From Erysipelotrichaceae bacterium (lineage in GTDB: Bacteria; Bacillota_I; Bacilli_A; RFN20; CAG-826): a stretch of 64,000 nucleotides of DNA. Under the pieces are notes generated by a model that had not been told where the DNA came from, ran no database searches, and was given only the letters and a program-made list of their open reading frames with translations. The position numbers and the translations under genes were made by a program. Numbering within the stretch: the first letter of the stretch is position 1; every line of letters begins with the position of its first letter. The stretch spans positions 15,251-79,250 of the forward strand of contig SVAY01000003.1 of NCBI GenBank assembly GCA_015059185.1, read 5' to 3'. Positions 26,914 to 29,363 of the stretch are shown in pieces.

Positions 26914-29363
26914 TTATTGATTTACAACAAAATCACGTTCTGGCATGCGAACAACACCTGAACCATATACCTCTATAGTAACATTTTTTGGAATAACATC
27001 GTTTTCCACATCAACTATTATATTTGAAGCAGAAGGATAACCACTACCATTTTTTCCATAACCACAGAACAATTTTGAATTATTGCCATAATTAAATGTT
27101 CCACCATTTAAATTGAGTTCTATTCTACCACTATATTTCAAAGTAAAAATACAAGAATTTTCTAAATGACTTGTTTGTTCAAAATATCCACCATAAATGT
27201 TAAGTTTTTGTGTTTCGCTAGTAGCGTTAGCTAATTGTATTACATTTTGATCATCAATGGTAGTATTGTTTCTATTGGCCCTAAATGTTCCAGAATAAAC
27301 ATTTATTGTACATGCATGTGACTCTGACCCATTACTTGATATACATGGCCTCCATGTGCTGAATGATGGACCCGCTTCACCTTTTACACCTAAATTTACT
27401 TCCGAAGCATCCGTAATATAGATGCCATAATTTCCATCAGTTGGTGTTGTAAAAGTACCACCTAAGAAATTGCAAGAACATGCATTTCCTAAATATGCAA
27501 GATAATTTGAACCTGTTGCTGTTGTAGAGAAACTTCCACCAAATGTAGTCACTATGCCACCCAATACTTCAAATGTTGATTTGAGTCCCACATAATTACC
27601 ATCATAAATATCGAGCGTAGAAGTAGGACAAACAGTTAACATATATTCACTAGATGAAGAAATTGAACCATTACCACGTATAGTAAGATGACCAATTGAC
27701 GTTGATGAACCAACTTGAACAAGATATTTCGCTGAACCAGTTATTGTTTTTTCATTCATATTTAGAGTAATCGTTTTATTAACAGTAACTTTTTCACTAG
27801 ATCCTAAAGCAATATCATCTAATAGAACAATAACATCACCATCTTGTGCTGCATTAATTGCTGCTTGAAGTGTAGAATAACCAGTATTATTGATAGCAAC
27901 AGCACCTTGAATAAGATCATCTGATGCACTAGCAATAGCAGCTTCTTTTTGTTCGTTCGTCATTGTATTAAAGTCTTCAGGTAATGTTCCGCCAGTTGAT
28001 GAATAAATAATATTATTCGTTGTTGGACTAATTAAACCATTATTAGGGTTAGCACCCCATAAAACTTCAGAGGTATTAAGAATAATCGGAACCTCTTTGT
28101 TTGCACTGTTATCTGCTGATAAAGTTTTAACTGTTGCAAGTTCTGCTGCAGTCATATCAATTACAACTGCACCTGCGGAACAATCGTTATGAACAACAAC
28201 TTTACCCTTTTCAAGATTAATATTACCAGCTATGTCGCCATGTTCATTATAACAATTGTTATTATCAACTGCTGTAATATCAACTTTGTTCGCTTTACCA
28301 TAATGTGTAACTGTATCATTCTCTGCATTAATGGTCAAAACTGTGCTATAGGAATTAGTACGAATAACGACGCTATGAACATCGGTTGCTTCATGTCTAT
28401 CATAAGTAATGTTAGAGATAGTAGTAACATCACCAACATCTAAACCAACGGTTAAGTTATCAATATCAGTCCAACCTTCGCCAGTAGCGTAGATGGAATA
28501 ATCTTGAGTAGTTGGCATTGATTCATAGATTTTGAAATATCTGTAAGCATCCACTGGAGCTTCATTAAAACTATAGAATTGATCTCTTTCAACGCTATAA
28601 ACATAGCCTCTTTCTTTAACAGCAGCTACTTGAGATGCATCTAAATCTAAAAGAGCATCATGCATAGTGTCATTAGCGCCTTCAAGTCTAGATGTACCTA
28701 ATGTAGTGTTAATTGCTTCTAGAGTATCATCGGTATAAGCATTACCTTGAACAGCTTCATAACCTAAAACAAGAACAGCTTCCTTATCTTGGTATTGATT
28801 ATCATTATTATCATTACCAAATAAGACTTCACCATTGTCACCATCAGGGAAATTAACAGTTACAGTATATGAAGTTGGATTTTCGAATGCATTTACGTTT
28901 TCCCAAGTAGTATAAGATGTGCCTTCTCCTTTTAAAGCAAATTGTCTAGCATCACCTAATTTAGCTTCGACTTCTAAAGCACCCGCTAATTCACCTTGGA
29001 GAGAGACGTATAAACGTGATTTGATATTGATATTGGTTTTAGTGTTATCTAAATTAAAGCTGAATTTTGCGCCATCTCCTGGGGCGAGTTTATTTAAATG
29101 AATAACATTGTATTCATCTTTTGAGATAGACGCTCCAATGCTACTAGTATAGTTGTAATCACTATTTTTAGTCATTGAGACATTGCCTAATTCCCAAGCG
29201 TTATCAATTTTAAATCCGCCTTGAGAGCGATTTTACCTGCTTTTACATCGATTGTTGTTTCCGCTTTTGATGTAAATAAAGCGAAAGTTGTACCAACTGC
29301 AATGCCTCCAAAAGCTAGAGCGGCTGCAGCAGAGAGAATAATAGGTTTAATTTGTTTTCTCAT
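26914..29363 (-). pseudogene. Largest TasA/camelysin-family paralog (about 815 aa if intact), with a beta-helix-like C-terminal extension. It is interrupted by a -1 frameshift in a C3/G3 run at 29193-29195. This could be a genuine disruption or a sequencing error.
   Basis: The N-terminal fragment at 29187..29363 encodes MRKQIKPIILSAAAALAFGGIAVGTTFALFTSKAETTIDVKAGKIALKADLKLITLGN*, a SipW-cognate-type signal peptide. The main body at 26914..29175 continues in the -1 frame as (W)ELGNVSMTKNSDYNYTSSIGAS... The paralog reads continuously across this point (SQLVSVTELHDVAV...YTNSIGG). Restoring one G gives TLGELGNV. TasA-like motifs are LAPGDGAKFSF and LVLGYEAVQGNAY, and the C-terminus has repeated GG(T/Y)F beta-helix-like units. 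Confidence 0.55.

What the first reader, a model, noticed from the sequence alone, without database searches (positions are those of the whole stretch)
29176..29363. -1 frameshift in the largest TasA-like gene separates its signal peptide from the body
The 59-codon fragment at 29363..29187 encodes a perfect SipW-cognate signal peptide and ends at TAG. The 753-aa body continues in the -1 frame. The paralog aligns continuously across the junction (LKLITLG|ELGNV versus SQLVSVTELHDV), and adding one G to the GGG run (plus-strand CCC at 29193-29195) restores TLGELGNV. This is a pseudogene in the making, a slipped-strand on/off switch, or a homopolymer sequencing error. As it stands the beta-helix body has no export signal.
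Basis: seen in the sequence. Interest (0 to 1): 0.5.

Follow-up and report, generated by a model that had tools for sequence, protein, structure and literature searches.

The report
Frameshifted TasA-like surface protein gene

Summary
The split is real. A 58-codon ORF (29363..29187, minus strand) carries a SipW-type signal peptide and stops at TAG. The 753-codon body continues in the -1 frame (29175..26914).

The proposed repair, a fourth G at 29193-29195, is wrong. Sister-strain contigs read GGCGGATGTTAAAATTG where the window reads GGCGGAT-TTAAAATTG. The lesion is therefore one missing G between 29214 and 29213, in a TGT context and not in a homopolymer. TGGGAA (Trp-Glu) is unchanged in every haplotype and in the closest intact ortholog.

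The same deletion is present in a second assembly that differs by 6 SNPs, so a sequencing or assembly error is unlikely.

The sister strains with the intact junction lack an A 159 nt downstream (29055/29054) and stop after 104 codons. That makes two independent frameshift alleles, and no intact 816-aa allele is on record.

The deletion happens to create an in-frame U_UUA_AAA slippery heptamer. It is not ancestral, has no significant downstream structure, and is not conserved.

Verdict: recent pseudogenisation of a TasA-like N-domain / beta-helix fusion protein. It is not a homopolymer switch, not an error, and not two genuine genes. Interest is low.

The parts
29187..29363 (-). Truncated 5' ORF: 58 codons plus TAG. 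It encodes the SipW-type signal peptide and about 20 residues of the N-terminal arm of the mature protein. The last 7 codons (L-I-T-L-G-N-stop) are out-of-frame read-through.
   Evidence: TIGR04088 19.3 bits against cutoff 19. The same 58-aa product is called on two contigs.
29213..29214 (-). The lesion: one G is missing between these two bases. The ancestral minus-strand sequence GAT GTT AAA ATT (D-V-K-I) has become GAT TTA AAA TTG.
   Evidence: Base-by-base comparison with L005 and L006. The in-frame product P0030 reads KADVKIDNAWELGNV. Ortholog P0006 reads APVTISSAWELGDV.
29208..29214 (-). T_TTA_AAA, an X_XXY_YYZ heptamer in the 0 frame, created by the deletion itself (TGTTAAAA became TTTAAAA). 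A -1 slip here would give the full-length protein with only V51L.
   Evidence: TTTAAAA occurs 62 times in the window against 70 expected. In-frame heptamers occur at 0.39% of codons. No significant downstream structure.
29193..29195 (-). It is part of the TGG GAA (Trp-Glu) codons of the authentic body frame and is not the lesion.
   Evidence: Identical in the window, L004, L005 and L006. TGGGAA is also present in the ortholog DNA. The G-insertion repair scores 3.5 bits lower than repairs at 29216-29198 against a family HMM.
26914..29212 (-). Authentic body of the gene in the -1 frame, called as a 753-aa ORF from ATG 29175. It comprises the TasA-like jellyroll core, a linker domain shared with pilin-fused homologs, a highly conserved middle block, and a C-terminal beta-helix.
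   Evidence: AF2 model of residues 425-753 has pLDDT 90.7, and its top Foldseek hits are all right-handed beta-helix proteins.
29054..29055 (-). AA dinucleotide (TTT AAT TTA) where the sister-strain allele has a single A (TTT ATT TAG). This is the second, independent frameshift site. It is intact in the window.
   Evidence: Allele B is on 4 contigs.
33028..33858 (-). SipW-like (archaeal/ER-type) signal peptidase I of the same operon, the presumed processing enzyme.
   Evidence: NF046067 E 2e-14 (53.6 bits, below cutoff 190). TIGR02228 46.6 bits (cutoff 51.85). Both.
29406..30317 (-). Intact 303-aa paralog: TasA-like N-domain plus a Flg_new repeat.
30320..32215 (-). Intact 631-aa paralog with the same signal peptide and N-domain.
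26773..26805 (-). Terminator-like hairpin after the broken gene, marking the end of the operon.

Best explanation
The gene once encoded an 816-aa secreted protein. Its parts were a SipW-type signal peptide, a flexible N-terminal arm, a TasA-like jellyroll domain, a linker and middle region, and a C-terminal beta-helix.

In the lineage represented by the window, one G was lost from GAT GTT AAA (between 29214 and 29213). Ribosomes starting at ATG 29363 therefore leave the authentic frame after codon 50 and stop at TAG after 58 codons.

The product is a pre-peptide holding the signal peptide and, by analogy with TasA residues 28-47, the donor-strand arm. The jellyroll core and beta-helix are either not translated, or are made from the weak internal ATG 29175 without an export signal and without the arm. 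Either way they are non-functional as a surface fibre or adhesin.

Sister strains lost the same gene through a different one-base deletion 159 nt downstream. The gene is therefore dispensable or counter-selected in this population, and it is at the first stage of decay.

Shown: the lesion, its position, its reproducibility, the second allele, and the family assignment.

Inferred: loss of function, the direction of the change (deletion from an intact ancestor), and the donor-strand analogy.
For: (1) Frame analysis shows a 0-frame stop at 29189..29187, and the body frame is open from 29232.

(2) Sister-strain contigs L005 (ENA ERZ27247052) and L006/L007 (JGI 3300018407) have an extra G at the junction. 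They encode MRK..KADVKIDNAWELGNVSMTKNSDYNY.. in one frame (P0030).

(3) The closest intact ortholog P0006 (60% identity in the N-domain) aligns without gaps. It shares Val and Ala-Trp-Glu-Leu-Gly, and GCC TGG GAA at DNA level.

(4) The same deletion is on JGI 3300019375 contig Ga0187898_1003177. That contig is 99.87% identical to the window, with 6 SNPs and no gaps. The same 753-aa protein is in an NCBI MAG as MBE6141482.1.

(5) Allele B carries its own frameshift, TTTAATTTAG to TTTATTTAG, giving 104-aa and 583-aa ORFs on 4 contigs.

(6) No intact 816-aa protein was found among about 15 billion proteins.

(7) In the 8 kb compared, the only coding indels between strains are the two in this gene.

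(8) 30 of 31 related loci are uninterrupted across the equivalent region.

(9) The ATG at 29175 has only an AGG 10 nt upstream as a ribosome-binding site.
Against: No reads were seen, so a co-existing intact haplotype or a minority variant cannot be excluded.

All six contigs come from samples with adjacent accession numbers. They may share one inoculum, so 'two independent assemblies' may not mean two independent natural populations. The provenance could not be established.

The 753-codon body is still completely open. The 7 SNPs inside it split 4 non-synonymous to 3 synonymous, against 78% non-synonymous expected under neutrality. Continued constraint is therefore not excluded.

The deletion created a U_UUA_AAA heptamer exactly at the lesion, so some full-length product could still be made.
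Confidence: 0.85

Rival explanations
1. Leaky or programmed -1 ribosomal frameshifting. Ribosomes slip at U_UUA_AAA (29214..29208) from the 0 frame into the body frame and produce the 816-aa protein with V51L. Under this reading the allele is an attenuated or regulated gene, not a null.
For: The heptamer fits X_XXY_YYZ, is in the 0 frame, and lies exactly at the lesion. The chance that a 7-codon interval holds such a heptamer is about 2.7%. The slip product would match the ancestral protein except for one conservative change. The body ORF is fully open.
Against: The heptamer is derived, not ancestral: sister strains and the ortholog have GTT/GTC there and are simply in frame. The downstream 60-100 nt fold no better than shuffles (z -1.2 to -1.9). 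The upstream AAGGCGG sits 1 nt from the site, which is not the roughly 10-nt spacing that stimulates -1 shifts in dnaX (my own knowledge). TTTAAAA is common in this AT-rich DNA, 62 found against 70 expected. The other allele has no heptamer at its lesion. The 0-frame product is a 58-aa stub with no evident use.
Confidence: 0.07
2. Sequencing or assembly error: the organism has an intact gene, and the missing base is an artefact of the MAG consensus.
For: The window comes from a metagenome assembly (MEGAHIT-style contig name). Single-base indels are a classic artefact, and the reads were not inspected.
Against: The missing base is not in a homopolymer (TGT became TT). The same indel is present in a separate JGI assembly that differs from the window by 6 SNPs. 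The alternative indel is reproduced on 4 further contigs from ENA, JGI and Logan. No assembly has the intact combination.
Confidence: 0.03
3. Reversible phase variation: a contingency locus switched on and off by slipped-strand mispairing in a repeat tract.
For: Surface adhesins are typical targets of phase variation. Two different frameshift alleles co-exist among close strains.
Against: Neither lesion lies in a tract long enough to slip: TGT became TT, and AA became A. The longest nearby runs are A4 and G3, and they are invariant in four haplotypes and the ortholog. No 'on' allele was found.
Confidence: 0.03
4. Two genuine genes: a small secreted peptide gene followed by a separate cytoplasmic 753-aa protein gene.
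For: Gene callers annotate both ORFs, and NCBI lists the 753-aa ORF as a protein.
Against: The in-frame sister allele and the ortholog show one continuous domain across the break. The family HMM and the TasA profile span it. In the AF2 model of the ortholog, the break lies at the first core strand of the jellyroll, residues 52-59. 30 of 31 relatives are single ORFs.
Confidence: 0.01

Closest known systems
Bacillus subtilis tapA-sipW-tasA operon (TasA biofilm fibre; PDB 5OF1, 8AUR)
   Same: A dedicated SipW-type signal peptidase gene sits next to genes whose products carry the ..GTTFALFT.. SipW-cognate signal peptide. The N-domain profile hits TasA only (E about 1e-6), and the predicted fold is a jellyroll. 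In TasA, the residues right after the cleavage site (28-38) are the donor strand that builds the fibre (PMC9674648). Here the break falls just after the equivalent arm.
   Different: The protein is 816 aa against 261 aa. The TasA-like domain is only the N-terminal quarter and is followed by a linker, a middle block and a beta-helix. There are four paralogs in a row. Pfam Peptidase_M73 scores just below its cutoff (21.0 against 22.5). Fibre formation is untested. The gene is broken.
Clostridium perfringens bsa operon (SipW, BsaA, BsaB; TasA family; PMC11580942)
   Same: It is an anaerobic Firmicute operon with SipW plus several TasA-family paralogs. The paper reports that the family is widespread in bacteria and archaea.
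   Different: No homology test against BsaA was run here. No vWA protein is present in this operon. The isopeptide residues were not examined. C-terminal beta-helix fusions are not described there.
dnaX / IS3-type programmed -1 frameshift sites
   Same: An X_XXY_YYZ heptamer in the upstream frame, with the downstream frame overlapping.
   Different: There is no conserved stimulatory hairpin or pseudoknot. The site is absent from sister strains and the ortholog. The 0-frame product has no evident function.
Right-handed beta-helix adhesins and glycan-binding proteins, e.g. Lactobacillus reuteri SRRP binding region (5NY0)
   Same: The AF2 model of the C-terminal 329 aa is an all-beta solenoid. 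5NY0 is the best Foldseek hit (TM 0.50), followed by pectate lyases and phage tailspikes.
   Different: All E-values are above 0.09 with about 10% identity. Only the fold class is shared, and no functional inference is warranted.

Membership tests
TasA / camelysin family (Pfam PF12389 Peptidase_M73) | Sequence match to the family model or to TasA itself | tested here: met
   A profile of the N-domains (A1) hits only TasA chains in the PDB: 5of1_A at E 1.1e-6 and 8aur_A at E 1.5e-6. PF12389 on the reconstructed N-domain scores E 3.2e-4 and 21.0 bits, just under the 22.5 cutoff.
TasA / camelysin family (Pfam PF12389 Peptidase_M73) | SipW-dependent-type signal peptide | tested here: met
   TIGR04088 scores 19.3 bits (cutoff 19) on the 58-aa fragment. 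The paralogs score 15.1-17.7 bits.
TasA / camelysin family (Pfam PF12389 Peptidase_M73) | Jellyroll beta-sandwich fold | tested here: inconclusive
   The AF2 model of ortholog P0006 residues 1-333 has pLDDT above 90 for residues 50-230. Foldseek returns many jellyroll CBMs first. The TasA fibre 8aur_A is rank 22 (E 2.7e-3, probability 0.97, and the longest alignment among the listed hits at 254 columns). The window's own reconstructed protein could not be submitted.
TasA / camelysin family (Pfam PF12389 Peptidase_M73) | Adjacent dedicated SipW signal peptidase | tested here: inconclusive
   The 276-aa ORF at 33858..33028 hits NF046067 SipW at E 2e-14 but with 53.6 bits against a cutoff of 190. 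TIGR02228 gives 46.6 bits against 51.85.
TasA / camelysin family (Pfam PF12389 Peptidase_M73) | Assembly into fibres by N-terminal donor-strand exchange | not testable with these tools
   Known for TasA (PMC9674648). Here there is only the positional analogy of the N-terminal arm.
Programmed -1 ribosomal frameshift site | Slippery heptamer X_XXY_YYZ in the upstream frame inside the overlap | tested here: met
   T_TTA_AAA at 29214..29208 is in frame 0.
Programmed -1 ribosomal frameshift site | Stimulatory RNA structure 5-9 nt downstream | tested here: not met
   Folds of 60, 80 and 100 nt downstream give z -1.18, -1.28 and -1.89. The only local element is a 5-bp hairpin containing G-U pairs.
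Programmed -1 ribosomal frameshift site | Frameshift and heptamer conserved in relatives | tested here: not met
   Sister strains have GATGTTAAAA and are in frame. Ortholog P0006 is in frame. 30 of 31 relatives are uninterrupted.
Phase-variable (slipped-strand) contingency gene | Lesion lies in a homopolymer or short tandem repeat that varies in length between strains | tested here: not met
   The lesions are TGT to TT and AA to A. The G3 and A4 runs are invariant in four haplotypes.
Frameshift pseudogene | Reading frame disrupted relative to intact homologs, and reproducible in independent assemblies | tested here: met
Frameshift pseudogene | Loss of the functional product | not testable with these tools
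   Inferred from the loss of the signal peptide and N-terminal arm from the body.

The most novel reading that the evidence does not exclude
The same large surface protein gene has been knocked out twice, by different one-base deletions, in otherwise almost identical co-occurring strains. No intact copy is on record. This could reflect active selection to shed the protein, for example because it is a phage receptor or a cost in enrichment culture.

In the window's allele, the deletion created a U_UUA_AAA slip site exactly at the lesion. Ribosomal -1 slippage there would regenerate the full protein with only V51L. A null mutation would thereby become a low-level 'leaky' allele.
Probability: 0.1. 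Interest if true: 0.45.

Novelty: new member of a known kind. Interest (0 to 1): 0.2.

Why it matters
For annotation, the 58-aa and 753-aa ORFs (NCBI MBE6141482.1) should be joined and flagged as one frameshifted pseudogene. The lesion should be placed at 29214|29213 and not at the G-run.

For biology, it shows that one of four TasA-like paralogs in this SipW operon is dispensable in these gut-derived communities, and that it has been lost twice independently. This is a modest hint of selection on a surface structure.

The locus as a whole is more interesting than the frameshift. TasA-like N-domains are fused to large payloads here, and the same payload is found elsewhere on a pilin-type N-terminus.

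Tried and rejected
I tested it by translation, by alignment, by scoring every possible one-base insertion against a family HMM (G-run 258.5 bits against 260-262.8 for 29216-29198), by ortholog DNA, and finally by the sister alleles. It is rejected.

(2) My own interim idea that an A was lost from an A5 run. It gives the right frame and nearly the right protein (L instead of V). Allele B shows that the missing base is the G of GTT.

(3) A DNA pattern scan of JGI metagenome contigs for junction variants found nothing. The pattern does match the window itself, so that collection evidently lacks these samples. A protein-based scan found only one distant relative.

(4) A scan of GTDB species genomes with the single protein found nothing. 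With an alignment it found only 25-32% identical relatives. No same-species genome was therefore available there.

(5) I searched for the accession numbers in the literature and in the supplements of the goat-gut enrichment paper PMC8007473, which reports abundant Erysipelotrichaceae MAGs. There were no matches, so the provenance remains unestablished.

(6) Rfam at gathering thresholds gave no RNA family anywhere in the window.

I used the ortholog instead.

Full report
**1. The observation**

On the minus strand, an ATG at 29363 is preceded by AAAGGAAA. It opens a 58-codon ORF that ends at TAG 29189..29187. A 753-codon ORF runs from ATG 29175 to 26914 in the -1 frame, and that frame is open back to the stop at 29235..29233. 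The fragment MRKQIKPIILSAAAALAFGGIAVGTTFALFTSKAETT.. reaches the NCBIfam model for SipW-dependent signal peptides (TIGR04088, 19.3 bits, cutoff 19). The split is therefore real and lies at the stated coordinates.

**2. Where the lesion is**

That repair does restore an ORF, but it is not the true one.

The closest intact homolog, P0006 (927 aa, 60% identical in the N-domain), reads ..GKIDLKAPVTISSAWELGDVAMTKNSDF... The window's body frame reads ..KIDNAWELGNVSMTKNSDY... At DNA level P0006 has GCC TGG GAA CTC GGC where the window has GCT TGG GAA TTA GGC. The three Gs are therefore the native Trp-Glu codons.

I scored every possible one-base insertion against an HMM of 17 family members. This places the best repairs at 29216-29198 (260-262.8 bits) and the G-run repair 3.5 bits lower.

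The decisive evidence came from the protein clusters. The 58-aa fragment clusters with a 104-aa protein, P0030, that reads MRK..GKIALKADVKIDNAWELGNVSMTKNSDYNY..KFSFI. Its contigs are L005 (ENA ERZ27247052) and L006/L007 (JGI 3300018407). They read GGCGGATGTTAAAATTG where the window reads GGCGGAT-TTAAAATTG. The lesion is one G missing between 29214 and 29213, changing GAT GTT AAA ATT to GAT TTA AAA TTG. It is not in a homopolymer.

**3. Real or artefact**

The same deletion is on JGI 3300019375 contig Ga0187898_1003177 (L004). That contig is 99.87% identical to the window over 4,598 bases, with 6 substitutions and no gaps. The same 753-aa protein is in an NCBI MAG of Erysipelotrichaceae as MBE6141482.1. 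A non-homopolymer indel reproduced in a second assembly with a different SNP background is very unlikely to be an error. I could not see reads, so a minority intact haplotype is not excluded.

**4. A second, independent frameshift**

The contigs that are in frame at the junction lack an A at 29055/29054. TTT AAT TTA GAT has become TTT ATT TAG. Their protein therefore stops after 104 residues, and the body is called as 583 aa from an internal Met (P0026/P0027). This allele is on four contigs.

Apart from the two indels, L005 is identical to the window across the whole gene. In the 8 kb compared, the only coding indels between strains are these two. No intact 816-aa protein exists in the 15-billion-protein collection.

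The simplest history is an intact recent ancestor (+G, +A) and two separate one-base deletions. The seven substitutions inside the body split 4 non-synonymous to 3 synonymous, against 78% non-synonymous expected. That is too few to judge constraint.

**5. What the gene is**

- A profile of the N-terminal domains hits only TasA in the PDB (5OF1 and 8AUR, E about 1e-6).
- Pfam Peptidase_M73 scores just under its cutoff (21.0 against 22.5 bits).
- The AF2 model of the ortholog's N-terminus has a confident beta-sandwich from residue 50 to about 230. Its first 38-45 residues are disordered.
- Foldseek returns jellyroll modules, and the TasA fibre with probability 0.97.
- The C-terminal 329 residues model at pLDDT 90.7 as an all-beta solenoid. 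All its best matches are right-handed beta-helix proteins, though none is statistically strong.
- The operon, read on the minus strand, starts at a promoter-like site at 34434 and ends at a terminator at 26805..26773. It holds a 169-aa ORF, a SipW-like peptidase that is below the curated cutoffs, a 198-aa TasA-like gene, 631-aa and 303-aa paralogs, and the broken gene.
- Thirty of 31 relatives in other gut Firmicutes are uninterrupted through the equivalent region. The two-gene reading is excluded.

**6. Consequence**

In TasA, residues 28-38 directly after the SipW cleavage site are the donor strand that links subunits, and residues 39-47 form a linker (PMC9674648). Here the frame is lost at codon 51. 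In the ortholog model this is where the first core strand starts (residues 52-59).

By analogy, the stub keeps the signal peptide and the arm. The jellyroll core and the beta-helix have neither. The internal ATG at 29175 has only an AGG 10 nt upstream. I infer a non-functional product, but this is not shown.

**7. The slippery heptamer**

The deletion turned TGTTAAAA into TTTAAAA. This is T_TTA_AAA in the 0 frame, exactly at the lesion. A -1 slip there would restore the protein with only V51L.

Such in-frame heptamers occur at 0.39% of codons in this window, so the chance of one in a 7-codon interval is about 2.7%. TTTAAAA as a string is not enriched, with 62 found against 70 expected.

Against a programmed site:
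- It is derived, not ancestral.
- The downstream RNA folds no better than shuffles (z -1.2 to -1.9).
- The other allele has no such site.
- Rfam finds nothing.

I keep leaky slippage as a minor rival.

**8. Comparison and novelty**

The system resembles tapA-sipW-tasA of B. subtilis and the SipW-BsaA-BsaB operon of C. perfringens (PMC11580942). It differs in having large C-terminal payloads.

The frameshift itself is an ordinary young pseudogene. Its only unusual aspects are the second independent knock-out in sister strains and the accidental slip site.

Provenance of the samples could not be established.

**Verdict**

The interpretation 'pseudogene in the making' is supported. The homopolymer switch, the sequencing error and the G-run repair are rejected. 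Interest is low.

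Noticed in passing
window 26914..28749 (-), residues 143-753 of the 753-aa ORF; proteins P0002, P0003, P0005, P0007: The C-terminal three quarters of the gene (linker, a nearly invariant middle block VVIRTNSYSTVLTI..AELATV, and the beta-helix) is 58-69% identical to proteins from other contigs whose N-terminus is a type IV pilin-like signal. Pfam N_methyl scores 28.8 bits on P0007 and 33.2 on P0002 against a cutoff of 21.2; P0003 and P0005 carry the same precomputed PF07963 hit. The same payload appears on a TasA-like scaffold and on a pilin-like scaffold. 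The C. perfringens paper PMC11580942 also links TasA-family operons to type IV pilins.
   Followed up: partly
window 32243..32839 (-), 198-aa TasA-like gene, compared with L005: 19 of the 26 substitutions between the window and sister strain L005 over 8.3 kb fall in this 597-bp gene (3.2% divergence against 0.1% or less elsewhere). This is either a recombination tract or diversifying selection on the smallest TasA-like subunit.
   Followed up: no
window 23474..24976 (-), IMP dehydrogenase, and downstream, compared with L007: 59 substitutions in 1.5 kb (3.9%) against JGI 3300018407. Beyond it the strains differ in toxin-antitoxin content: RelB/PIN in the window's contig and MazE/PIN in L007. 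This looks like a mosaic strain boundary.
   Followed up: no
window 25277..26584 (-): A 435-aa lipoprotein-like ORF (LGAC lipobox) with collagen G-X-Y repeats (PF01391, E 6e-10) and a repetitive beta-rich C-terminus. It has its own terminator at 25199..25169 and lies directly after the TasA-like operon.
   Followed up: no
window 32892..33041 (-): A 49-aa ORF with one hydrophobic helix and a Lys-rich tail lies between the SipW-like peptidase and the 198-aa TasA-like gene. It is not called in the ENA gene table.
   Followed up: no
window 10799..17551 (-): A 2250-aa ORF, the largest in the window. It was not examined.
   Followed up: no
L009-L038 (GTDB genomes): The TFALFT[DS].. SipW-type N-domain family is widespread in ruminant and human gut Clostridia, Holdemanella and Ruminococcus bicirculans MAGs. 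There are often several copies per genome: five loci in one R. bicirculans assembly and three in RGIG8643.
   Followed up: no
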